This document shows, piece by piece, positions 573 to 17,019 of a stretch of 17,252 nucleotides of DNA. Below the pieces are notes generated by a model. That model was not told the origin of the DNA. It was given only the letters and a program-made list of their open reading frames with translations, and ran no database searches. The DNA comes from a virus. The stretch lies in the UHGV virus genome UHGV-0812067; one strand, given 5' to 3'. Numbering within the stretch: the first letter of the stretch is position 1; every line of letters begins with the position of its first letter. The translations under genes were made by a program, and so were the position numbers.

Positions 573-1901
573 ATGACGTGGAAAGACAGGCTTCAGGATG
601 CGTCATTTCGCGGCGTACCGTTTAAGGTTGAAGAAGAAAGTGCGGGAACCGGTCGCCGTGTGGAAACACACGAATATCCGAACCGCGACAAGCCCTATAC
701 CGAAGATCTGGGAAAAGTCACTTTCCGCCCGTCCATCACAGCTTATGTGGTGGGAGATGACTGCTTTGACCAGCGCGATCGCCTGATTGACGCGCTGAAT
801 AAACCCGGTCCCGGCACGCTTGTCCACCCGACATATGGTGAGCTGAAAGTCTGTGTTGACGGGGAAGTTCGGGTCAGCACATCGAAAAGTGAAGGGCGTA
901 TTGTCCGCTTTGACCTGAAGTTTGTCGAAGCGGGAGAACTCTCTTACCCCACATCAGGTGCGGCGACGGCGCAGACGCTGATGTCATCCTGTTCTGCACT
1001 GGATGACTGCATCAGTGACAGCTTCAGCGGTTTCAGTATCGATGGTGTGGCGGATTTCGTGCAGAACGACGTTATCGGTAATGCCAGCATAATGCTGGGG
1101 TATGTTTCTGATGCGATGAAAGTGGTGGATTCTGCCGTATCGGATGCCGCCAGGCTGTTGCAGGGGGATATCTCGGTACTTCTGCCGCCGCCATCGTCAG
1201 GCAAAAATTTCGTTGAGCAGGTGCAGAAAATGTGGCGTACCGGGAAACGCCTTTATGGTAACGCCAGCGACCTGGTCACCATGATCAAAACGCTTTCCGG
1301 TGTCAGCCTCGGCAGCGATCTGCAACCGCGCGGCATCTGGAAAACGGACAGTAAAACCACCGCCACGGCGACGCAGCAGCGTAACGTGGTTGCCAGCACC
1401 CTTCGTACGACCGCAATCAGCGAAGCGGCGTATGCCGTCACCCGATTGCCTGCGCCAACAACTTCCGCGGTGATGCAGAATGCCGCAGTGGGGCAGGCAA
1501 CAACACCTGCGCAGAGCACTGGCTGGCCTTCCGTCACGCATCCGGCACTGAACAATGCACCGGCGGTGAAAAACACGGTTGACCTGCCGACGTGGGAAGA
1601 ACTGACTGACATTCGCGACACACTGAATACGGCAATTGATAAGGAGTTGTCCCGTACAACCAGTGATGCGCTGTTTCTGGCGCTGCGCCGGGTGAAAGCA
1701 GATCTGAATGCGGATATCAACACGCGCCTTGAACAGTCTGCACGGATCATTCAGCGCACACCGGATGAGGTTTTACCCGCGCTGGTGCTGGCGGCGACCT
1801 GGTTTGATAACGCGGCGCGTGACGCGGACATTATCCGGCGTAATGCCATTACGCATCCCGGCTTTGTGCCGGTGATCCCTCTGAAGGTGCCAGTGCAATG
1901 A
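573..1901 (+). CDS. Mu gp43 (N)-like DNA circulation protein / tail-baseplate-associated protein
   Basis: ATG at 573 preceded by GGAG (564-567). N-terminus MTWKDRLQDASFRGVPFKV... is typical of the Mu-type DNA circulation protein N-terminal domain. Stop overlaps the next start (ATGA at 1898-1901). Confidence 0.8.
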   Translation: MTWKDRLQDASFRGVPFKVEEESAGTGRRVETHEYPNRDKPYTEDLGKVTFRPSITAYVVGDDCFDQRDRLIDALNKPGPGTLVHPTYGELKVCVDGEVRVSTSKSEGRIVRFDLKFVEAGELSYPTSGAATAQTLMSSCSALDDCISDSFSGFSIDGVADFVQNDVIGNASIMLGYVSDAMKVVDSAVSDAARLLQGDISVLLPPPSSGKNFVEQVQKMWRTGKRLYGNASDLVTMIKTLSGVSLGSDLQPRGIWKTDSKTTATATQQRNVVASTLRTTAISEAAYAVTRLPAPTTSAVMQNAAVGQATTPAQSTGWPSVTHPALNNAPAVKNTVDLPTWEELTDIRDTLNTAIDKELSRTTSDALFLALRRVKADLNADINTRLEQSARIIQRTPDEVLPALVLAATWFDNAARDADIIRRNAITHPGFVPVIPLKVPVQ

Positions 1902-2977
1902 ACGACAATGTCACGCTACGGATAAATGGCCGGGAGTGGAATGGCTGGACATCGGTGCGCATCGGTGCCGGTATTGAACGGCTGGCGCGGGATTTCAGTG
2001 TGGAGATCACCCGCCAGTGGCCGGGAGATGAGGGTATTACCACGCTTCAGCCGCGCATTAAAAACGGTTCAAAAGTGGAGGTGCTGATTGGTGATGAGCT
2101 GGTGATCACCGGCTGGGTGGAGGCGACGCCCGTTCGTTACGATGCCCGTTCGGTCAGCACCGGTATTGCCGGACGCAGTCTGACCGCTGACTTGATTGAC
2201 TGTGCAGCCGAACCGACACAGTTTAACGGACGATCGCTGGTACAGATTGCGCAGGCGCTTGCTGCGCCTTTCGGCATTGAGGTGGTGAACAACGGTGCGC
2301 CGTCGGGTGTTATTCCTGATGTCCAGCCTGATCACGGTGAAACGGTGATTGAGGTAATCAACAAAATACTCGGTCAGCAGCAGGCACTGGCTTACGACGA
2401 CCCGCACGGCAGGCTGGTGATTGGCGGTATTGGCTCAACGCGGGCACATACTGCGCTGGTACTCGGGGAAAACATCCTTTCCTGCGATACGGAGAAGAGT
2501 ATCCGGGAGCGGTTTTCTGTTTACCAGGTGGCGGGGCAGCGTGCCGGAAACGACGATGATTTCGGTGAGGCCACCACCACCGCGCTGCGGGCCCGCACAG
2601 AGGACGCATTTATTGCCCGTTACCGTCCGATGTATATCAGGCAGACAGGGCAGGCTACGGGGGCAGGCTGTATTGCCCGTGCGGACTTTGAAGCCCGACA
2701 ACGGGCGGCGCGGACGGATGAAACCACCTATGTGGTGCAGGGCTGGCGACAGGGTAACGGTACGCTGTGGCAGCCCAACCAGCGGGTGATTGTCTTTGAT
2801 CCGGTCTGTGGTTTCGACAATACCGAACTGCTTGTTTCGGAAGTCACGTTTACTCAGGACCAGAACGGCACCCTGACGGAAATCCGTGTCGGCCCGCCTG
2901 ATGCTTATCTGCCTGAACCCGAAGCCCCCGGCGCGCGGAAAAAGAAAAAAGCCAGAGTACAGGAGGACCCGTTCTGA
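1898..2977 (+). CDS. Mu gp44 (P)-like baseplate hub protein
   Basis: 359-aa ORF coupled to neighbours by overlapping stop/start. Position and size match the Mu/P2 gpD-type hub in the conserved baseplate gene order. Confidence 0.75.
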   Translation: MNDNVTLRINGREWNGWTSVRIGAGIERLARDFSVEITRQWPGDEGITTLQPRIKNGSKVEVLIGDELVITGWVEATPVRYDARSVSTGIAGRSLTADLIDCAAEPTQFNGRSLVQIAQALAAPFGIEVVNNGAPSGVIPDVQPDHGETVIEVINKILGQQQALAYDDPHGRLVIGGIGSTRAHTALVLGENILSCDTEKSIRERFSVYQVAGQRAGNDDDFGEATTTALRARTEDAFIARYRPMYIRQTGQATGAGCIARADFEARQRAARTDETTYVVQGWRQGNGTLWQPNQRVIVFDPVCGFDNTELLVSEVTFTQDQNGTLTEIRVGPPDAYLPEPEAPGARKKKKARVQEDPF

Positions 2978-3525
2978 TGAAGGCGATTGAAACCATACAG
3001 CGACAACTCCTCGGCCTGATTGGGCGGGCGGTGGTGAAAAGCATCAGTGCCGCCACGAAATGTCAGACCGTGGATGTGTCCCTGATTGCCGGTGAACCCA
3101 AAGCCGGGGTTGAACATCTTGAACCCTACGGTTTTACCGCAAGGGCAAACAGCGGTGCGGAAGCGGTGGTGTTGTTTCCGGATGGCGACCGTTCTCATGC
3201 GGTGGTTGTTACGGTGTCGGACCGGCGCTACCGCCTGAAAGGGCTGCAGACGGGTGAGGTGGCTGTCTATGACGATCAGGGGCAGTCCGTGACGCTGGCC
3301 CGGGAGGGGATCGTGGTGGACGGTGCAGGTAAAACGATCACGTTTCGCAATGCGCCTAAGGCACGTTTTGAAATGGACCTGGAAGTGACCGGACAGGTGA
3401 AAGACCTGTGCGACTCCACCGGCACCACCATGTCAGCGATGCGGCTTGCCTATAACGGGCATCGTCACAGAGAGAACGGTCAGGGCAGTAACACCGACAA
3501 ACCTGATAAAGTGATGGAGGCATGA
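2977..3525 (+). CDS. Mu gp45 / gpV-like baseplate spike protein
   Basis: 182-aa ORF with AGGAGGA upstream (2961-2967) and start overlapping the upstream stop. Sequence and size are typical of phage baseplate assembly protein V. Confidence 0.75.
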   Translation: MKAIETIQRQLLGLIGRAVVKSISAATKCQTVDVSLIAGEPKAGVEHLEPYGFTARANSGAEAVVLFPDGDRSHAVVVTVSDRRYRLKGLQTGEVAVYDDQGQSVTLAREGIVVDGAGKTITFRNAPKARFEMDLEVTGQVKDLCDSTGTTMSAMRLAYNGHRHRENGQGSNTDKPDKVMEA

Positions 3526-3950
3526 TGGAACTGTGGCTGACGGTGAACGGTAAACGCACCTGCGCCAGCGCACAACTGGATCCGCTGACCCGCGCCGTGG
3601 TGATTTCCCTGTTTACCTGGCGGCGGGCGGAGCCTGATGACAACGCCGAAGTCCCGATGGGATGGTGGGGGGATACCTGGCCTGCGGTACAGAATGACCG
3701 TTACGGCTCCCGACTGTGGCTGCTTCAGCGCAGCAAACTGACCAATCAGCTGGTGCAGACGGTAAGGGGGTATATCCGCGAATGCCTGCAATGGATGATT
3801 GATGACGGCGTGGTGTCCCGTATTGATCTGGATATCCGCCGCACCGGGATTAATGAACTGGGTAACAGTATCACTCTCTGGCGTCGTGACGGACCGGTAA
3901 TGATTTCTTTTGATGATCTGTGGAGTGCGATAACGCATGGCGGACAGTGA
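3525..3950 (+). CDS. Mu gp46 / gpW-like baseplate wedge protein
   Basis: ORF track starts at 3522 (ATGATG); the second ATG at 3525 has better spacing from GGAGG (3516-3520). About 140 aa, consistent with the GP46/gpW family by position and size. Confidence 0.7.
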   Translation: MELWLTVNGKRTCASAQLDPLTRAVVISLFTWRRAEPDDNAEVPMGWWGDTWPAVQNDRYGSRLWLLQRSKLTNQLVQTVRGYIRECLQWMIDDGVVSRIDLDIRRTGINELGNSITLWRRDGPVMISFDDLWSAITHGGQ

Positions 3951-4995
3951 ATTTCAGCGCCCGACGCTGGCAGAAAATATCAGTATGCTCCGTAACGATT
4001 TATTCGCCAGGCTGGACGTCAGCGACACGCTCCGGCGCATGGATGAAGACGTGCGGGCAAAGGTGTATGCGGCGGCGCTGCATACGGTTTACGGTTACAT
4101 CGATTATCTGGCAATGAACATGCTGCCTGATCTGTGCGATGAGTCCTGGCTGGCGCGACATGCTGCGATGAAACGGTGTCCGCGCAAGGGGGCCACGGCT
4201 GCCAGCGGGTATATGCGCTGGGAAGGTGTCAGCGATGGCCTGAAGGTGACCGCCGGGAGTGTTATTCAGCGCGATGACCTGGTTCAGTACACGGCAACTG
4301 CCGATGCAACCAGCACTGGTGGTGTCCTGCGTGTGCCGATCACTTGCTCAACTACAGGCGCGGTCGGTAACGCTGACGACGGTACGGCATTAATCCTGGT
4401 CACACCGGTGAATGGTCTGCCGTCTTCCGGTGTGGCTGACACCCTGACAGGCGGATTTGATACTGAAGAGCTGGAAACGTGGCGCGCCCGCGTCATTGAG
4501 CGGTATTACTGGACGCCTCAGGGCGGGGCTGACGGGGACTATGTCGTCTGGGCTAAAGAAGTGCCCGGCATTACCCGCGCATGGACATACCGTCACTGGA
4601 TGGGAACGGGAACTGTCGGTGTGATGATTGCCAGCAGTGACCTGATTAATCCCATTCCGGAAGAATCAACGGAAACGGCAGCAAGACAACATATCGGGCC
4701 ACTGGCCCCGGTGGCAGGCTCTGATTTGTATGTATTCAGGCCGGTGGCACATACGGTGGATTTTCATATCCGCGTGACGCCGGACACACCGGAAATACGG
4801 GCTGCCATTACCGCGGAGTTGCGTTCGTTCCTGCTGCGTGATGGTTATCCGCAGGGAGAACTGAAGGTATCGCGTATCAGTGAAGCGATTTCCGGTGCGA
4901 ACGGGGAATACAGCCATCAGTTGCTTGCACCGGTGGACAATATCTCCATTGCAAAAAATGAACTGGCGGTACTGGGGACGATTTCATGGACGTGA
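3937..4995 (+). CDS. Mu gp47 / baseplate J-like protein
   Basis: 352-aa ORF overlapping the upstream gene by 14 nt. Size and position match baseplate J-like wedge proteins (gpJ of P2, gp47 of Mu, JayE of e14). Confidence 0.8.
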
Positions 4996-5570
4996 CAAAC
5001 GATGATTACATCCGTCTGTTGTCGGCACTGTTGCCCCCCGGTCCGGCGTGGTCAGCCAGCGATCCGGCGATTGCCGGTGCGGCACCGTCATTAACCCGCG
5101 TTCATCAGCGTGCGGATGCCCTGATGCGGGAGCTGGATCCGCGCACCACCACCGAACTGATAAATCGCTGGGAGCGTCTGTGCGGCCTGCCGGATGAATG
5201 TATTCCGGCGGGAACGCAGACCCTTCGCCAGCGTCAGCAACGACTGGATGCGAAGGTTAACCTGGCGGGCGGCATCAACGAGGATTTTTATCTTGCACAG
5301 CTTGCTGCCCTGGGCAGACCAGACGCTACCATCACGCGATACGACAAAAGCACGTTCATCTGCTCATCTGCCTGTACTGACGCGGTGAATGCGCCGGAAT
5401 GGCGGTATTACTGGCAGGTCAACATGCCAGCCGCCACCAACACCACCTGGATGACATGTGGCGATCCCTGTGATTCCGCGCTGCGTATCTGGGGCGACAC
5501 CGTTGTCGAGTGTGTGCTTAACAAACTCTGCCCGTCGCATACCTACGTAATTTTTAAATATCCGGAGTAA
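4986..5570 (+). CDS. Mu gp48 / gpI-like tail protein (YmfQ/DUF2313-type)
   Basis: 194-aa ORF overlapping the upstream gene by 10 nt and lying immediately upstream of the tail-fibre gene, as in Mu/P2/e14-type modules. Confidence 0.75.
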
Positions 5571-5573
5571 TCC

Positions 5574-6536
5574 ATGCATCGTATAGACACGAAAACCGCG
5601 CAGAAGGATAAGTTCGGCGCGGGTAAGAACGGTTTTACCCGTGGTAACCCCCAGACCGGCACACCTGCCACCGATCTGGATGATGACTACTTTGACATGT
5701 TGCAGGAAGAACTTTGTAGCGTGGTGGAGGCCTCCGGTGCCAGCCTGGAGAAAGGGCGGCATGACCAGCTGCTTACCGCACTTCGTGCGCTGCTGTTAAG
5801 CCGCAAGAATCCGTTTGGCGATATCAAATCGGACGGCACGGTGGAAACGGCTCTCGAAAACCTTGGTTTGGGAGATGCCAACGGATATGTGGGCCGAAAG
5901 GTTGCGGAAAAATGGATAACGACATCTGGGACATATACGCCTACACCGGGAACAAAAAAAATCAGGGTAACGATAATTGGCGGAGGCGGCGGCGGGGGCA
6001 GTGGGCAAACAAACTCTGCTGGATACGTATCTGCCGGGTCTGGTGGAGGTGCCGGTGGTGTGGCTCGTAAAACAATTGACGTTACCAGTGTTTCATCAGT
6101 GTCCGTAACCATCGGTTCAGGCGGTAATCCAGGTGTCTTCTCTTCAAATCAGCCTGGTGATGGTGGTACCACAAGTTTTGGCTCCTACATGACAGCTGGC
6201 GGGGGTGGCCGAGGAAATAACTGTGGCTCGGTAGCATTCGGTGTTACTCAGTTAATTGCGAACGGTGGCGGCGGGGTTGGTTCAGGAGGTGATATCAACA
6301 CCATCGGCGGCTCTGGCGGCCCGGCGATAATTCTGGGACAGGGGTACACCAGCGGCGGCGGTGGCAACTCAATAGTAGCTGGAGGTGGACAGCCTATTGC
6401 AACAACGTCATCAATGAGTGGAATTGATGGCTCATATGGTTCTGGTGGGTCAGGCGCTTACATTCTGGCCAGCGGTAGTGAAAAAAATGGCGGACGTGGT
6501 GGTGATGGCGTTTGTATCGTTGAGGAGTATGCATAA
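5574..6536 (+). CDS. tail fibre protein, expressed form in this orientation (constant N-terminus + glycine-rich variable C-terminus)
   Basis: ATG at 5574 with GGAG (5563-5566). N-terminus [40 protein letters not shown]... is the conserved phage tail-fibre N-terminal domain. From about residue 98 the protein is extremely Gly/Ser-rich. The inversion crossover site lies inside the gene at 5851-5876. Confidence 0.85.
5851..5876. repeat. invertase crossover site, left (gix/cix/pix/hix-like, 12-2-12 layout)
   Basis: ctctcgaaaacc tt ggtttgggagat: two half-sites resembling the invertase half-site consensus (..TC..AAACC) around a central TT. The 11 bp ttggtttggga (5863-5873) is the exact reverse complement of 7677-7687. 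Confidence 0.7.
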
Positions 6537-6943
6537 TGAATAACATTTATGCTGTTGTTGAAAATGGCGTGGTGATCAACATCGTCGTCTGGGATGGGAA
6601 ATCGGAATGGCAACCGGTAACTGGGGAGGCTGTTTCTTGTTCTGCTCAGGTTGGTATCGGCTGGTTGTATGATGGAAGTAATTTCACCCAGCCACCAACA
6701 CCCGAGCAGACTCCAGAAGAATTAGCAGCGGCAAACATGGCTAAAGCTGCATCTGAGTATGAACGTGCCAGCGTAGTCATTGTAGCGCTAAATGAGCAGA
6801 TCGAAGACGAGGACTACGCAGGGACTACGGAAGAGGCCGTGAAATCAGAATTGGCCGCATGGACTGACTATCGTAAACAGCTTCGCGCTTACATTAAGGC
6901 CGGGGATGGCAGCCAGACACTACCATCCTTTGTAATGATTTAA
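6536..6943 (+). CDS. tail fibre assembly/chaperone-like protein for the current fibre form
   Basis: ATG overlaps the fibre stop (TAATG at 6534-6538) with GAGGAG upstream (6522-6527). C-terminus ...AWTDYRKQLRAYIKA resembles the Tfa C-terminal W-x-x-YR motif. The N-terminal part is not classic Tfa. Confidence 0.55.
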   Translation: MNNIYAVVENGVVINIVVWDGKSEWQPVTGEAVSCSAQVGIGWLYDGSNFTQPPTPEQTPEELAAANMAKAASEYERASVVIVALNEQIEDEDYAGTTEEAVKSELAAWTDYRKQLRAYIKAGDGSQTLPSFVMI

Positions 6944-7323
6944 ACTGGTCGTGTAGGCCACTCTATATCGGGAGCCGTGCTGGTATCAGTTCGCATCACG
7001 GCAACCCGATAATCTTCCCACGAGGTTAATCTAGCAGCTTCTTCATCAGTCGCTATTCCTGCGGTTACTGCATATTGAAGAGGTGATATTGCAAAAGTTG
7101 CTGCCGCCAGCAGCTCTGCTTTTTTCTGATTTGCAATCGCTACTTGCTGATCATGAGTCAGTGGCGCAGGGTCGCTCAGTTCGGGAAAACCACTTTCGTT
7201 TGCAATAATTACCTTTCCTCCCGCCTGCCCAATCACCAATTCTGACCAGTAGTCGTCGGTAATCTCCACCTGGCTATCACTCATCCGCCCAACCGTAAAT
7301 CCAATCTCTGTGGAATAAAACAT
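6940..7323 (-). CDS. tail fibre assembly protein (Tfa), alternative-orientation copy
   Basis: C-terminus ...ATDEEAARLTSWEDYRVAVMRTDTSTAPDIEWPTRPV matches the conserved Tfa C-terminal motif. Its stop codon overlaps the convergent + strand stop within TTTAAA (6940-6943). Confidence 0.8.
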   Translation of the reverse strand: MFYSTEIGFTVGRMSDSQVEITDDYWSELVIGQAGGKVIIANESGFPELSDPAPLTHDQQVAIANQKKAELLAAATFAISPLQYAVTAGIATDEEAARLTSWEDYRVAVMRTDTSTAPDIEWPTRPV

Positions 7324-7685
7324 TACGCACTCCCCATAGCCATATATTTAAAAGAAAAAGATCCGTTCAGATTTGCCCCTGCGGCATCCTTTCCGTAAAT
7401 TGTCACAACCGAACCTGATTCAGGAATGGCGGCATAACTAACAACGCCTGAGCCAATATCAGTCGGGATAAAAGTAAAACCAGTGCTGGGGTAAGCCAAT
7501 GGAAGAGTAAAGCTCAGTACGCCGTTAACAAAATTTCCAGATCCACTGCCCTCCATTATTCTACGGTTTCCTGCAATCACTATTGAAGTAAATACGTTTG
7601 AAGCGCCAGCGTATGTGAAGTTTGACATGTCTGGAATTTGACCAGTTCCTGTACCCACATCTTTTTTGGCTGCTGTTCCCAAACC
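7323..7685 (-). CDS. silent alternative tail-fibre C-terminal segment (Sv'-like), lacks its own N-terminus in this orientation
   Basis: Minus-strand frame is open from the stop at 7692-7694 through the crossover site to TAA at 7323-7325. It reads ...KVGLGTAAKKDVGTGTGQ..., with GLG encoded by the same ggtttggga as NLGLGD in the + fibre, in the same frame. The TTG 'start' in the ORF track is probably not a real start. Confidence 0.65.
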   Translation of the reverse strand, partial: GLGTAAKKDVGTGTGQIPDMSNFTYAGASNVFTSIVIAGNRRIMEGSGSGNFVNGVLSFTLPLAYPSTGFTFIPTDIGSGVVSYAAIPESGSVVTIYGKDAAGANLNGSFSFKYMAMGSA

Positions 7686-7699
7686 AACCTTTCAAATAT
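7674..7699. repeat. invertase crossover site, right
   Basis: tgttcccaaacc aa cctttcaaatat: the left half-site matches the half-site consensus well, the right half is degenerate. It carries the 11-bp inverted repeat tcccaaaccaa (7677-7687). Confidence 0.65.
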
Positions 7700-7726
7700 T
7701 TTTCTGAATCAGGTGATATTTCGCCT

Positions 7727-7753
7727 CTTCTCCTGTTTTTACAACAGGAGAAG
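7727..7753 (+). promoter_or_regulatory. hairpin sequestering the invertase Shine-Dalgarno
   Basis: cttctcctgt (7727-7736) and acaggagaag (7744-7753) form a perfect 10-bp inverted repeat with loop ttttaca. The right arm contains AGGAG (7746-7750), the RBS for the ATG at 7759. Confidence 0.4.
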
Positions 7754-7758
7754 CACTC

Positions 7759-8322
7759 ATGATTTACGGGTATGTTCGTGTATCAACAAATCATCAGGAT
7801 ACAGAGTTGCAACGTCTTGCACTTGAGTCAGCTGGCTGTGAGCGAATTTATGAAGAATATGCCAGTGGCAGAACAGCTAATCGCCCTGTGTTAAAGGAAT
7901 TAATTACGGTGATGAAAAGTGGAGATGAGTTGATTGTCTGGAAGTTAGATCGGATAGGGAGAAATGTGCTGCATGCGCTATTGATGTTTCAAAATCTGCA
8001 CGAAAAAGGTGTTAATTTTCGGAGTATTACAGATGGCGTAGACCTGAAAACAGCAAGTGGTCGCTATAATTTCCGTAATATTCTTTCTGCTGCGCAGTAT
8101 GAATCTGATTTGAATAGCGAGCGAACTTTAGCTGGTTTGGCTATTGCCAGATCCAAAGGCCGGATTGGTGGGCGTAGACCGAAGTTTAGCGACGAGCAGT
8201 GGCAACAGATGGGAGCGCTCATAGCGGCAGGGAAATCACGGCGTTATGTTGCACGTATCTATAACGTTGGGCTATCAACCCTATATAAACGATTTCCTGT
8301 TACTGGCATTCAAACGAAATAA
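7759..8322 (+). CDS. serine DNA invertase (Gin/Cin/Pin/Hin family resolvase-type recombinase)
   Basis: MIYGYVRVSTNHQDTELQ... contains the catalytic Ser motif (YVRVS), VWKLDRIGR, GRIGGRRPK and a C-terminal HTH ...GLSTLYKRFP. It is 187 aa and sits adjacent to the invertible segment. Confidence 0.9.
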   Translation: MIYGYVRVSTNHQDTELQRLALESAGCERIYEEYASGRTANRPVLKELITVMKSGDELIVWKLDRIGRNVLHALLMFQNLHEKGVNFRSITDGVDLKTASGRYNFRNILSAAQYESDLNSERTLAGLAIARSKGRIGGRRPKFSDEQWQQMGALIAAGKSRRYVARIYNVGLSTLYKRFPVTGIQTK

Positions 8323-8361
8323 TTTAAAAGCAATTTAAAGAGTTATTTGTCTAATGTTGGA

Positions 8362-8399
8362 AGCCGCAGCCACGTCGTATGCAAGAACGTGCTGCGGCT
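8362..8399. terminator. hairpin between convergent invertase and dinI-like genes (possible bidirectional terminator)
   Basis: agccgcagccacg (8362-8374) pairs with cgtgctgcggct (8388-8399), about 12 bp with one bulge. There is no clear U-tract on either side. Confidence 0.35.
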
Positions 8400-8465
8400 G
8401 GCTGGCGAACTTTCGATAGTGCGAGTATTGAATGATTTCCAGCCGTTACCGATTTTACGTGTTAA

Positions 8466-8775: not shown

Positions 8776-9873
8776 TCAAGGGGTCTTATTTCTGCTCCTT
8801 TGGAGCTCTTCAAAACGATTATGTAAAGATTTCGGATACAGTTCGGTATATACCTGCCATAGCACGTTTAATGAACGATGCCCTGTAACCTGGGCTACTT
8901 CCTCAATACTAAAACCAGCCTCAAATAAGCGACTTGCCCCTTCTCTACGCAAATCATGGTATCGCAGATCCTTAATACCTAATTTGCTTCTTACCCTCTG
9001 AAATCCCGCAGTAACAGAAGTGCTGTTATATGGAAAAATGAATTCCGATTTTTTGGGCTGTCGTTGGACGATATCCCAGGCTTCCCCAAGCAAGGCTACT
9101 TTCATGTGGTTGCCTTCCTTTTTGCGTGGATCTTTCCTGTCTCTTACGAGTATAGATTTTTGTTCCTGGTCGAGATCTTCCCATCGTAACCGGCATACTT
9201 CTCCGATTCGCATACAGGACCACACAGAAAATTTGAGGATATCAACGAACGGAATTTTTGAGCATTTATGAGTAGATCGTTGTTGAAGGCCTTCAATGAG
9301 CATGTCCAGTTCATCAGATGCTGGTCTACGATTACGACGGTTTGATTTACCAATCAAACCAAGTTTAAGTAGATATGGACGAGCACTTTTCGCCGGGTTT
9401 GATGTGTAATTAATTCCGTATACAGGTTTGGCCGCATCCAGAACACTGCCAAGATAACTAACATCGTGGCTGACTGTTGCTGGACCTGCGCCAGCGTTGT
9501 TTCTTAGCCTGCAATGTTCAATTACGTCATTTTCTGTCAGTTCAGATAGTTTGATCGCGGAGATGTCACTATCCATAAGCAGTTCCAGCACATATCTTTT
9601 AGTACGGCCTGCTTTACCTCCGGCATTTGGGTCATTTAAATATTTGTGTAGTAAGTCACGGACTGTAAGTCCGTCAACTGCATTTGATGATGGAATGCCA
9701 TATAGATCTAATTCCATCACTTTCTGTGTGCCCCATGTTTTGGCATGAGCATGTTTAGGGAATGTTTTGCTTTCCCTGTAAGTGATAACACCTTTTTCTT
9801 TGATAATCACATTACAGCGATAGCGTGGTGTGCCATCGGATTTTAGTCGTTTCTCTATGTTATAGTACGCCAT
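8776..9873 (-). CDS. tyrosine site-specific recombinase (phage integrase)
   Basis: 365 aa. The C-terminal catalytic region has the R...HxxR...Y arrangement (...LRYHDLRREGASRL...VTGHRSLNVLWQVYTELYP). GAGG lies 7 nt upstream of the ATG at 9873. Confidence 0.9.
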   Translation of the reverse strand: MAYYNIEKRLKSDGTPRYRCNVIIKEKGVITYRESKTFPKHAHAKTWGTQKVMELDLYGIPSSNAVDGLTVRDLLHKYLNDPNAGGKAGRTKRYVLELLMDSDISAIKLSELTENDVIEHCRLRNNAGAGPATVSHDVSYLGSVLDAAKPVYGINYTSNPAKSARPYLLKLGLIGKSNRRNRRPASDELDMLIEGLQQRSTHKCSKIPFVDILKFSVWSCMRIGEVCRLRWEDLDQEQKSILVRDRKDPRKKEGNHMKVALLGEAWDIVQRQPKKSEFIFPYNSTSVTAGFQRVRSKLGIKDLRYHDLRREGASRLFEAGFSIEEVAQVTGHRSLNVLWQVYTELYPKSLHNRFEELQRSRNKTP

Positions 9874-11896: not shown

Positions 11897-12469
11897 TTAC
11901 AGGTCGCTGCTGGTGGCCGGAATCAACTTCTGCCAGATCGCGGACACGTATTTTGCTTGATGTCGCGCATCGGCCAGTGCGTTATGTGCAACCCCATCGA
12001 ATGGCATATCTCGCTTTGGATCGAAACCCACCACTCTGCCTAATGTGACGATGGTTCTGACGTCGTGATCGTTCCAAAATTGCCACGGGCAAACCTGGCC
12101 GGTGCGCTCATATGCGCCGCGCAATATAACGTTGTCGAAAGTAGCTCCATTGCCCCAAACTTTTAAATATTTGGGGTTATCAGAATGCCGATTAATGAAA
12201 TGGCTCAGTTCAGATAGGGCAGACGATATCGGCATCGCATCATCAACACAGATTGCTGATCGTGCTTCTGAGCTTTGTCTTAACCACCACAGAATAGTGT
12301 CACCATCCGGCACCGCTCCCTGCTCCATAGCGCTTTCAAGGTTAACGGCGGTGTAAAACTCCTGACCCAGTTCACCGCTTTGCGGATCGAAGAACACGGC
12401 ACCAATGGAGACGATAGGGGCATTCGGTCTTTTGCCCATAGACTCAAGGTCGATCATTAAATTGTTCAC
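11897..12469 (-). CDS. DnaQ-like 3'-5' exonuclease (DEDDh family)
   Basis: Motif I MIDLESMG, central FDN and C-terminal H-x4-D (VAHNALADA). GTG at 12469 has AGGAG 10 nt upstream; an alternative ATG is at 12457. Confidence 0.75.
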   Translation of the reverse strand: MNNLMIDLESMGKRPNAPIVSIGAVFFDPQSGELGQEFYTAVNLESAMEQGAVPDGDTILWWLRQSSEARSAICVDDAMPISSALSELSHFINRHSDNPKYLKVWGNGATFDNVILRGAYERTGQVCPWQFWNDHDVRTIVTLGRVVGFDPKRDMPFDGVAHNALADARHQAKYVSAIWQKLIPATSSDL

Positions 12470-12470
12470 G

Positions 12471-12914
12471 TTAAATATTCTCCTGTTTTGGTGCTGCTTT
12501 AAGCATTGCGGCGCGGCAGGCGTTCCATCCCCTGACTTCAGCGATTGCAGCTACAGCGTCTATGGCATGCATTTTCGACGCCTCTGGCATCGGTTTTTCA
12601 TCCGGCACTACTGGCGCTGACTGCGGGGCGGCCCAGAGCTTATTGACGCCATCCGGCAGATTATTAAAATCAAACGTACTGCCCGGAATCCTGCCAGCCT
12701 GAATCCTGTCGTCTCCGTCAATCTCGATGAAAAATACTGGCTCTGCGTTCCTCGATGCTAGCACCTCATCAATCACATTCAACATATCACCGAGAATGTA
12801 TGCTCTGTTCCCGCCGTTTGAGTACTGGGTATCATGTTGCAGGTGCTCGCGTATCTGGTGCAGGCGATCGACAGATACAGGACCGTTCACCGGGTGGTTT
12901 GTGCTTTTAGTCAT
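12471..12914 (-). CDS. hypothetical early-region protein
   Basis: ORF track extends to 12968 from a non-ATG codon. I prefer the ATG at 12914 (MTKSTNHPV...), which has GGAGG 6 nt upstream and overlaps the upstream stop (ATGACTAA). Confidence 0.55.
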   Translation of the reverse strand: MTKSTNHPVNGPVSVDRLHQIREHLQHDTQYSNGGNRAYILGDMLNVIDEVLASRNAEPVFFIEIDGDDRIQAGRIPGSTFDFNNLPDGVNKLWAAPQSAPVVPDEKPMPEASKMHAIDAVAAIAEVRGWNACRAAMLKAAPKQENI

Positions 12915-16318: not shown

Positions 16319-16346
16319 TAAAAAAACCGGGGATACCCCGGTTTTG
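16319..16346 (-). terminator. rho-independent terminator downstream of the repressor gene (bidirectional shape)
   Basis: ccgggg-ata-ccccgg stem (16327-16341), flanked by an A7 run (16320-16326, a U-tract on the minus strand) and TTTT (16342-16345) on the plus strand. Confidence 0.8.
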
Positions 16347-16365: not shown

Positions 16366-17019
16366 TCAAAAATCCATTATTACTTGTTTGACAAGACCAA
16401 CTATTCTGCAGTTCTCACCGCATTCAATAGTTTTATAGTTAGGATTTAGTGGGACGAGATACCTGTTCGGCCAGTCCTCAACAAATTTTTTGAGTGTCGC
16501 TTCTTGCCCACCATTGATATGGGCAACAACGATTTTTCCGTTAATACACTCTGTATCAATAATATCTGGCTCTACGATAACGATAGAACCTTCTGGTATC
16601 GATGGTGAGCCGAGGGGATTGGTCATTGAATCACCACGGACCCGTAGTGCAAATGCCATTTCTGATACAAGGGCGGTAGTATAAACCCACTCTTCAGCAT
16701 CTTCTTTCCTGACACCAGGCTCCGTCATTGTCCATGAACCCGCCTGAACCCACGAGATGAGGGGGACTTTTTTAACTGCGAATATTTCAGGTTTTAGATT
16801 TATCTTTGGTTCAGGCGAGCCTTTTCCGCTAACAAGCCACAGAGGATCGCATTTAAGTGCGTTGGCTAGGGCTTGAAGGTTGGCTCCATTTGGTTGGTAG
16901 TCGTCCTTTTCCCATCCAGTAACCGTGACACGGTTCACACCAGTCAAATCAGCCAGTGCTTGTTGTGTCAGGTTCAGTTCTTTTCGCCTTTGGCGAATAC
17001 GATCACTCATGTTCATCAT
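16366..17019 (-). CDS. CI-like phage repressor (N-terminal HTH + C-terminal LexA/S24-type autocleavage domain)
   Basis: 217 aa. N-terminal HTH (RIRQRRKELNLTQQALADLTGVNRVTVTGWEKD); C-terminal S24 peptidase features (...ALRVRGDSMTNP... with a downstream Lys). No strong SD, as is common for repressor genes. Confidence 0.9.
   Translation of the reverse strand: MMNMSDRIRQRRKELNLTQQALADLTGVNRVTVTGWEKDDYQPNGANLQALANALKCDPLWLVSGKGSPEPKINLKPEIFAVKKVPLISWVQAGSWTMTEPGVRKEDAEEWVYTTALVSEMAFALRVRGDSMTNPLGSPSIPEGSIVIVEPDIIDTECINGKIVVAHINGGQEATLKKFVEDWPNRYLVPLNPNYKTIECGENCRIVGLVKQVIMDF

What the first reader, a model, noticed from the sequence alone, without database searches (positions are those of the whole stretch)
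7727..7761. Perfect hairpin occluding the ribosome-binding site of the DNA invertase
A 10-bp perfect inverted repeat (cttctcctgt / acaggagaag) places the AGGAG Shine-Dalgarno inside the 3' arm, 8 nt before the ATG. This would hold invertase translation low unless the structure is opened, a plausible way to keep inversion frequency low. The site also lies just outside the right crossover site.
Basis: seen in the sequence. Interest (0 to 1): 0.4.

Follow-up and report, generated by a model that had tools for sequence, protein, structure and literature searches.

The report
Hairpin masking invertase ribosome-binding site
A very stable, evolutionarily conserved RNA hairpin buries the ribosome-binding site of a prophage tail-fibre DNA invertase, most likely keeping the enzyme scarce; it is a clean but ordinary example of a well-known way of throttling translation.

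Summary
The perfect inverted repeat is 11 bp (7727-7737 / 7743-7753) with a 5-nt loop. AGGAG (7746-7750) lies in the 3' arm, 8 nt before the ATG (7759) of a 187-aa serine invertase.

As RNA it folds at -15.4 kcal/mol (z = -3.9) and forms with probability >=0.95 in every context tried. Opening the Shine-Dalgarno zone costs 14.8 kcal/mol, the highest of 21 ORFs in the window.

The hairpin is present in all 17 distinct leader variants of the phi80-PinL invertase clade. The stem is almost invariant, while the loop, flanks and codon third positions drift. All 90 occurrences in IMG/VR sit 4-8 nt before the invertase ATG. Only one compensatory change (C-G to U-A) exists, so formal covariation support is weak.

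A conserved weak promoter-like element would start transcription at about 7727, the first base of the left arm. The arm is therefore probably, not certainly, in the mRNA.

It is not a terminator, thermometer, LexA box, pseudo-crossover site or Rfam family. It is also not a general feature of Din invertases.

The same repeat is annotated without function as "IR3" in phage phi80. Verdict: a real, probably functional translational brake, and a new member of a known kind.

The parts
5851..5876 (.). Left crossover site of the invertible tail-fibre segment. Its reverse complement reads ATCTCCCAAACC-AA-GGTTTTCGAGAG.
   Evidence: Inverted repeat with 7677-7692 (pair I4); sequence read.
7674..7699 (.). 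Right crossover site, TGTTCCCAAACC-AA-CCTTTCAAATAT.
   Evidence: The core CCAAACCAACC and the outer half-site are conserved in relatives.
7691..7696 (+). -35-like hexamer TTCAAA, inside the outer half of the crossover site (predicted only).
   Evidence: PWM scan. The same aligned position scores in most PinL-clade variants (TTTATA, TTGAAA or TTGATA).
7715..7720 (+). -10-like hexamer GATATT (predicted only). It puts the transcription start at about 7727.
   Evidence: An element GAYNYT ending at -39/-38 is among the top three scores in 14 of 17 variants. The 17-nt spacer upstream is variable in sequence (2/17 invariant columns) but fixed in length. The stricter tool scan did not report it.
7727..7737 (+). 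5' arm of the hairpin, CTTCTCCTGTT (anti-SD arm).
   Evidence: 9 of 11 columns are invariant in 17 variants.
7738..7742 (+). Loop TTTAC.
   Evidence: The loop varies among relatives: TTCAC, TTCAT, TTTAC, TTTAT.
7743..7753 (+). 3' arm of the hairpin, AACAGGAGAAG, containing the Shine-Dalgarno AGGAG at 7746-7750.
   Evidence: The duplex with the 16S 3' end is -7.4 kcal/mol.
7759..8322 (+). Serine DNA invertase gene (187 aa, phi80 PinL-like).
   Evidence: Pfam Resolvase 3e-36 and HTH_7 7e-12. DNA is 79% identical to phi80 pinL.
7712..7725 (+). Small upstream hairpin GGTGA-TATT-TCGCC. It overlaps the predicted -10, so it would exist only in read-through RNA.
   Evidence: 96.5% of cells are paired. 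The only change is C-G to U.G on one side.

Best explanation
The repeat is an RNA leader hairpin of the invertase mRNA that locks the Shine-Dalgarno sequence in an 11-bp stem. The 30S subunit can bind only in the rare moments when the stem is open, so few invertase molecules are made per transcript.

This holds whether the transcript comes from the gene's own weak promoter or from rightward transcription out of the tail-fibre operon. The own promoter is predicted to start at about 7727, which would put the hairpin at the very 5' end of the mRNA.

Low invertase supply would keep flipping of the 1.8-kb tail-fibre segment (5864-7686) infrequent. It would also uncouple flipping from transcript abundance. 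A 5'-terminal stem may in addition stabilise the message.

Shown here: the structure, its stability, its conservation and its exclusive association with this gene. Inferred: that the arm is transcribed, that translation is reduced, and that inversion frequency follows invertase level. The thermodynamic model gives a reduction of roughly 10^2-10^3-fold.
For: - Stability: -15.4 kcal/mol, z = -3.85. Pair probabilities are 0.94-1.0, except the loop-closing pair at 0.84, in 72- to 601-nt contexts, including a 5' end at 7727 or 7729.
- Opening cost: 14.8 kcal/mol for the SD zone, against 5.7 +/- 2.7 for 20 other ORFs. It falls to 2.5 when the left arm is scrambled in silico. The SD/anti-SD duplex is only -7.4 kcal/mol.
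- Chance expectation: 0.03 such hairpins per shuffled window.
- Conservation: in 17 distinct leader variants, 9/11 left-arm and 10/11 right-arm columns are invariant. The comparison values are 3/5 loop columns, 2/17 promoter-spacer columns and 5/60 codon third positions. The coding DNA of these variants is 69-73% identical to the window type. The left arm is neither coding nor an SD.
- The outermost pair switches C-G to U-A between the two main types.
- All 90 IMG/VR occurrences of the stem are followed 4-8 nt later by ATGATYTAYGG.
- Independent invertase leaders with different sequences show the same layout. P2-like phages have ATCATCYCC/GGGGATGAT with U.G wobbles. P1 cin has GCUUGCUAU/AUAGUGAGC.
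- The conserved -35/-10-like element predicts a start at the first stem base.
- There is no convincing terminator between the tail-fibre operon and the invertase, apart from one chance-level candidate at 7096-7115.
Against: - No expression data of any kind were available.
- The transcription start is only predicted, and it falls right at the edge of the left arm. There is no purine at 7724-7734 to initiate on. The promoter scores 8 of 12 and was not called by the tool's scan. 2 of 17 variants have a poor -10 (GATCTC).
- Covariation is a single event: 26 of 500 shuffles do as well. Stem invariance alone cannot separate an RNA role from a DNA role.
- One natural variant (L062/L297) carries a C.A mismatch.
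- SD sequestration is not general among Din invertases: 4 of 36 in the e14/Mu/P2 family and 3 of 69 others. The family clearly functions without it.
Confidence: 0.6

Rival explanations
1. Insulator against read-through only, like IS10 fold-back inhibition. The invertase's own transcript would start inside or after the left arm and be freely translated. Only long transcripts entering from the late tail-fibre operon would contain both arms and be translationally silent.
For: The predicted start (about 7727) sits at the edge of the arm, so a shift of a few nt would shorten the stem. In the second leader family (e14 pinE, Mu gin, P2-like), the conserved extended -10-like TGGCATNAT ends at -27/-28. 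That would place the start 3' of the pyrimidine arm. The tail-fibre operon points at the invertase with no convincing terminator between them.
Against: With the -10 at 7715-7720, a start beyond about 7730 is unlikely. A start at 7729 still leaves a 9-bp stem with probability >=0.87. Compared with the second family, the PinL clade carries about 9 extra nt between the -10-like element and CTCC, and that places the arm inside the predicted transcript. No alternative promoter 3' of the arm was found.
Confidence: 0.15
2. The hairpin is chiefly a 5'-terminal stabiliser of the mRNA, like the ompA 5' stem-loop. It would protect a rare transcript from 5'-end-dependent decay, and the SD overlap would be secondary.
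For: The predicted start places the stem flush with the 5' end, with no single-stranded overhang. From general knowledge, that is the geometry that blocks RppH/RNase E entry.
Against: This does not explain why the stem must contain the SD in every variant. It also does not explain why unrelated invertase leaders pair a pyrimidine run specifically with the SD. It is compatible with the main explanation rather than exclusive of it.
Confidence: 0.1
3. The repeat works at the DNA level as a palindromic operator. A dimeric regulator, possibly the invertase itself at a pseudo-crossover site, would bind it and control transcription.
For: It is a 27-bp perfect palindrome next to a promoter-like element. 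The arms share TCTCC with the crossover half-site. From memory, P1 is reported to have a pseudo-cix site at the cin promoter. Stem invariance is equally expected for a protein site.
Against: The best register matches an idealised crossover site at only 10 of 26 positions. The background is 6.5 +/- 2.2, and 44 places in the window reach >=14. It lacks the AAACC-NN-GGTTT core, and the arm spacing is 1 bp off. CTGT-N7-ACAG is not a LexA box, which needs N8. The half-site recurs only once elsewhere in the window, as the SD of another gene. Real crossover sites are imperfect repeats, whereas this one is perfect and shows a compensatory change outside any 12-bp half-site. U.G wobbles in the P2-like hairpins fit RNA on the + strand only.
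Confidence: 0.07
4. The repeat is a non-functional relic or chance palindrome carried along with the gene.
For: The clade is narrow (>=78% protein identity). Most stem conservation could in principle reflect recent common ancestry, and only one compensatory change exists.
Against: Adjacent non-coding positions and synonymous sites have diverged heavily in the same sequences (2/17 and 5/60 invariant), while the left arm is 9/11 invariant. The chance expectation is 0.03 per window.
Confidence: 0.05

Closest known systems
"IR3" of phage phi80 (GenBank JX871397 / NC_021190, repeat_region 23919-23929 and 23935-23945, upstream of pinL)
   Same: The sequence from the crossover site to the ATG is identical: the same 11-bp arms, loop and distance to the invertase start.
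   Different: The record lists it only as an inverted repeat, with no function. The phi80 genome paper could not be read here. In phi80 the invertible segment is degenerate; here it is intact.
SD-sequestering initiation hairpins, quantified for the MS2 coat gene by de Smit and van Duin (my knowledge)
   Same: A local stem contains the SD, and expression is expected to fall exponentially with stem stability.
   Different: Those data are experimental. Here the effect is only calculated.
IS10/Tn10 transposase fold-back inhibition (Davis, Simons and Kleckner 1985; my knowledge)
   Same: A DNA-rearranging enzyme gene has its RBS paired with an upstream complementary segment, which keeps synthesis low despite outside transcription.
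   Different: In IS10 the element's own transcript starts inside the structure and escapes it. Here the predicted start includes the whole 5' arm.
Mu mom translation-inhibition stem opened by Com (my knowledge)
   Same: It is a phage leader hairpin that masks the translation start. In Mu the gene sits immediately downstream of the homologous invertase gene gin.
   Different: It needs a dedicated activator, Com. No Com-like gene or binding hairpin was identified here, and this was not tested in depth.
Leaders of other tail-fibre invertases: P1 cin, P2-like phages 500465-1 and 500465-2, KP12, e14 pinE, Mu gin
   Same: The layout is the same: crossover site or promoter, pyrimidine run, U-rich loop, SD, start. 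P1 cin and the P2-like subset also pair the SD.
   Different: Their stems are shorter, often mismatched and of different sequence. Only 4 of 36 in that family reach P >= 0.8 for SD pairing. Mu instead pairs its GUG start region.

Membership tests
cis-acting SD-sequestering leader hairpin | A stable local stem that includes the Shine-Dalgarno sequence. | tested here: met
   11 bp, -15.4 kcal/mol, with AGGAG in the 3' arm. Pair probability is >=0.94 for 10 of the 11 pairs; the loop-closing pair is 0.84.
cis-acting SD-sequestering leader hairpin | Both arms are present in the mRNA (5' end upstream of the 5' arm). | tested here: inconclusive
   The predicted -10 at 7715-7720 gives a start at about 7727, the first base of the arm. 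No mapped 5' ends could be obtained.
cis-acting SD-sequestering leader hairpin | Pairing is maintained in evolution (covariation). | tested here: inconclusive
   99% of cells are paired and 9 of 12 pairs never vary. One pair changes on both sides, and 26 of 500 shuffles reach this. The stem is far more conserved than its flanks.
cis-acting SD-sequestering leader hairpin | Disrupting the stem raises translation, and compensatory changes restore repression. | not testable with these tools
   Only an in-silico scramble was possible: opening cost falls from 14.8 to 2.5 kcal/mol.
intrinsic (Rho-independent) terminator | A G+C-rich stem followed by a U-run. | tested here: not met
   No terminator was called on either strand at 7727-7753. 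The stem is followed by CACUCAUG on the + strand and AGGCGAAAU on the - strand.
RNA thermometer (fourU / ROSE type) | A marginally stable SD stem that melts between 30 and 42 C. | tested here: not met
   -16.7 kcal/mol at 30 C, -13.5 at 42 C and still -5.9 at 70 C.
invertase crossover or pseudo-crossover site (hix/gix/cix/pix type) | A 26-bp site with two 12-bp half-sites around a 2-bp core, with AAACC-NN-GGTTT. | tested here: not met
   10 of 26 matches in the best register, against 22 for the true sites.
LexA (SOS) box | CTGT-N8-ACAG. | tested here: not met
   The sequence is CTGT-N7-ACAG.
IS10-type fold-back inhibition | The element's own transcription start lies inside or 3' of the 5' arm, so only read-through RNA folds. 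| tested here: inconclusive
   The predicted start is at the arm's first base. A 2-nt shift still leaves a stable 9-bp stem.
any curated RNA family (Rfam 15) | A score at or above the family's gathering threshold. | tested here: not met
   No hit at gathering thresholds in the whole window. The only local matches have E > 5.
Din-type serine DNA invertase system (the gene the hairpin controls) | A resolvase catalytic domain plus a C-terminal HTH. Inverted crossover sites flank a segment that holds alternative tail-fibre C-termini and assembly genes. | tested here: met
   Pfam domains, crossover sites, and PHROG tail-fibre and assembly hits on both strands of 5574-7682. The Fis-dependent enhancer was not examined.

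The most novel reading that the evidence does not exclude
The hairpin is not a passive brake but a gate. Either (a) a trans-acting factor (a phage or host RNA-binding protein, helicase or small RNA) opens it under particular conditions, so that tail-fibre switching comes in regulated bursts. Or (b) it discriminates between transcript classes, so that only one promoter's RNA makes invertase. The neighbouring e14/Mu/P2 leader family, where the conserved -10-like element would place the start 3' of the pyrimidine arm, hints at (b).
Probability: 0.1. Interest if true: 0.55.

Novelty: new member of a known kind. Interest (0 to 1): 0.3.

Why it matters
Tail-fibre inversion systems (Mu Gin, P1 Cin, e14 Pin) are classic models of programmed DNA rearrangement. 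Most work has addressed the recombination chemistry and the Fis enhancer, and much less the setting of invertase dose. A strong, clade-wide RBS-masking hairpin gives a concrete and easily testable handle on that dose for the phi80-PinL clade. A 801-bp query spanning the leader and the invertase gene matches 418 of 5,426 complete E. coli genomes.

It also matters practically. Anyone expressing these invertases from native fragments, or predicting switching rates of prophage host-range cassettes, should expect very poor translation unless the left arm is removed. It does not change any general principle.

Tried and rejected
1. Terminator on either strand: none.
2. Rfam family: none.
3. Pseudo-crossover site or invertase operator: 10 of 26 matches, rejected. 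LexA box: wrong spacing. Repeated operator half-sites elsewhere in the window: only one, and it is another gene's SD.
4. RNA thermometer: far too stable.
5. General property of Din invertases: rejected. SD pairing with P >= 0.8 is seen in 17 of 17 PinL leaders, but only 4 of 36 and 3 of 69 in the other groups.
6. Mapped transcription starts for K-12 pinE: the Cappable-seq and SMRT-Cappable-seq supplements are truncated or lack the region. In any case pinE belongs to the other leader family.
7. Literature on translational control of gin, cin, pin or hin in the held library: nothing relevant. The phi80 genome paper is not held.
8. Looking for more diverged PinL-type leaders to gain covariation:
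   - the genome scan gave relatives of <=72% identity that lack the hairpin;
   - the viral pattern scan gave no new stem variants;
   - the metagenome scan returned almost only unrelated soil recombinases and one PinL copy.
9. Start-codon hairpin AUGAUUU/AAAUCAU (7759-7765 with 7786-7792): present in the window, with mismatches in relatives, and judged incidental.

Full report
**What is there**

Positions 7727-7753 read CTTCTCCTGTT-TTTAC-AACAGGAGAAG. The repeat finder reports 11 perfectly complementary bases on each side with 5 between them (pair I14).

AGGAG lies at 7746-7750 in the 3' arm. The ATG at 7759 opens a 187-aa ORF whose product has a resolvase catalytic domain (3e-36) and the resolvase HTH (7e-12).

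The surrounding genes place it in context:
- a Mu-type baseplate module at 573-5570;
- a tail-fibre gene at 5574-6536 and an assembly gene at 6536-6943 on the + strand;
- an alternative fibre C-terminus at 7682-7323 and an assembly gene at 7323-6940 on the - strand;
- beyond the invertase, an integrase on the - strand at 8776-9873.

The two crossover sites are 5851-5876 and 7674-7699. Both have a CCAAACC-AA core region. The window is an E. coli prophage. The 801-bp query 7600-8400 is 99.9% identical to phage SKA5 over the aligned 90%, and it matches 418 of 5,426 complete E. coli genomes.

**Is it more than chance?**

A perfect stem of >=11 bp with a 3-8 nt loop is expected 0.03 times per dinucleotide-shuffled window, and it is the only one in the window.

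As RNA, 7720-7770 folds at -15.4 kcal/mol. Shuffles give -7.0 +/- 2.2 (z = -3.85), and none of 200 does as well.

The stem forms in every context tried, from 72 to 601 nt and with 5' ends at 7727 or 7729. Pair probabilities are 0.94-1.0, except the loop-closing pair at 0.84.

Making the SD zone single-stranded costs 14.8 kcal/mol. That is the highest of 21 ORFs in the window (the others average 5.7 +/- 2.7). The cost falls to 2.5 kcal/mol if the left arm is scrambled in silico.

The SD/anti-SD duplex is worth only -7.4 kcal/mol. With the usual thermodynamic model of initiation (rate proportional to exp(-0.45 x deltaG); my knowledge), a difference of 12-14 kcal/mol corresponds to a reduction of roughly 10^2-10^3-fold. 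This is an estimate, not a measurement.

**Conservation**

The same leader precedes phi80 pinL, mEp237 and HK225, where the DNA of the gene is 73-79% identical.

Protein- and pattern-based scans of IMG/VR gave about 190 loci. These collapse to 17 distinct leader variants. Their coding DNA is 69-73% identical to the window type. Invariant columns across the 17 variants are as follows:

| Region | Invariant columns |
|---|---|
| Left arm | 9 of 11 |
| Right arm | 10 of 11 |
| Loop | 3 of 5 |
| 17 nt upstream of the -10-like hexamer | 2 of 17 |
| Codon third positions | 5 of 60 |

The spacer between the stem and the ATG exists in seven versions.

The left arm is neither coding nor a ribosome-binding site. 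Its conservation therefore needs its own explanation, and complementarity to the SD arm is the obvious one.

The outermost pair is C-G in the window type and U-A in all other types. One variant carries a single C.A mismatch.

Formally this is one compensatory event. In the pair-count test, 26 of 500 shuffles do as well. Covariation alone therefore does not prove an RNA structure, and I say so plainly.

All 90 occurrences of the stem in IMG/VR are followed 4-8 nt later by the invertase start.

**How general is it?**

It is not general.
- Relatives at 68-72% protein identity (Morganella, Kluyvera) lack the hairpin.
- A second leader family covers e14 pinE, Mu gin and P2-like phages. It shares TGGCATNAT, a pyrimidine run, a T-run and the SD. 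Its hairpins are weaker and often mismatched.
- The probability that the SD zone pairs with upstream sequence is >=0.8 in 17 of 17 PinL leaders. It reaches that in only 4 of 36 leaders of the second family and 3 of 69 others, P1 cin among them.

The P2-like subset (ATCATCYCC/GGGGATGAT, with U.G wobbles) and P1 cin (GCUUGCUAU/AUAGUGAGC) show the same architecture with unrelated stem sequences. That is modest independent support for an RNA-level role.

**Is the left arm transcribed?**

The tool's consensus scan finds no + strand promoter here. A position-weight scan finds one element that recurs at the same aligned position in 14 of 17 variants. It is TTCAAA/TTTATA/TTGAAA (inside the outer half of the crossover site), then 17-18 nt, then GAYNYT ending at -39/-38. 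The intervening spacer varies in sequence but keeps its length. This pattern is what a real but weak promoter would leave.

In the window the element is 7691-7696 and 7715-7720. That predicts a start at about 7727, exactly the first base of the left arm. A start two bases further in still leaves a 9-bp stem with probability >=0.87.

There is no purine between 7724 and 7734, and two variants have a poor -10. I could not obtain mapped 5' ends.

**Alternatives examined**

- It is not an intrinsic terminator on either strand.
- It is too stable for a thermometer: -13.5 kcal/mol at 42 C.
- It is not a LexA box: the spacing is N7, not N8.
- It matches no Rfam family.
- It is not a pseudo-crossover site. 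The best register gives 10 of 26 matches, against a background of 6.5 +/- 2.2.
- Its half-site recurs only once elsewhere in the window, as another gene's SD.

Three readings remain open:
- An IS10-like reading, in which only read-through RNA folds. It depends on the true start site.
- A 5'-end stabiliser role, which is compatible with the main model.
- A DNA operator for an unknown protein, which cannot be fully excluded because stem invariance fits both RNA and DNA roles.

**Comparison with what is known**

The identical repeat is annotated as "IR3", without function, in the phi80 GenBank record. It has therefore been noticed before. I found no description of its role in the held literature, and the phi80 genome paper could not be read.

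Mechanistically it belongs with classic SD-masking hairpins. Conceptually it belongs with IS10 fold-back inhibition and the Mu mom leader (my knowledge).

**Verdict**

It is a new member of a known kind and of modest interest.

Noticed in passing
window 16323-16345 (- strand): AAACCGGGG-TAT-CCCCGGTTT followed by a T-run, about 20 nt after the stop of the CI-like repressor gene 16366-17019(-). This is a textbook intrinsic terminator.
   Followed up: partly
window 7096-7115 (+ strand): Terminator-like hairpin AGTTGCTG-CCGC-CAGCAGCT followed by CTGCTTTTTT, about 150 nt after the + strand tail-fibre assembly gene and inside the antisense of 6940-7323(-). It might stop late transcripts before the invertase in this orientation. 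The number of such sites is within chance expectation.
   Followed up: no
window 7786-7759 (- strand): Leftward sigma-70-like site TTGATA-16-AATCAT, built from invertase codons 1-2 and 8-10. It would give an antisense RNA across the hairpin and into the invertible segment. It is probably a by-product of coding constraints.
   Followed up: no
window 7759-7765 with 7786-7792: In this window the start codon region AUGAUUU pairs perfectly with AAAUCAU in codons 10-12, forming a second hairpin that also covers the AUG. Relatives have mismatches there.
   Followed up: partly
window 7712-7725: Small hairpin GGTGA-TATT-TCGCC directly 5' of the main stem. It is kept in 17 variants, with only C-G to U.G change. 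It overlaps the predicted -10, so it would exist only in read-through RNA.
   Followed up: partly
L250 3140-3185 (E. coli K-12 e14 pinE), L088 3540-3592 (Mu gin), L005-L007, L193-L249: A second invertase-leader family shares the extended -10-like motif TGGCATNAT, ending at -27/-28. That would place the transcription start 3' of the pyrimidine run that can pair with the SD. It is an IS10-like arrangement worth testing.
   Followed up: partly
window 6275-6287 and 6648-6660: Two further partial matches to the crossover core (GGTTGGTTCAGGA and AGGTTGGTATCGG) lie inside the invertible segment. They could be remnants or secondary sites, as in multi-inversion systems.
   Followed up: no
L353, L362, L429, L449, L453, L457 and many other soil metagenome loci: Unrelated MIYGY-type serine recombinases from soil carry a direct repeat TGATGCAGA-N5-TGATGCAGAAT just upstream of the start. 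It is probably a recombinase-binding or autoregulatory site.
   Followed up: no
window 12478-12487: The same AACAGGAGAA Shine-Dalgarno decamer, read on the - strand, serves the exonuclease-like gene 11897-12469(-), but without any complementary arm.
   Followed up: yes
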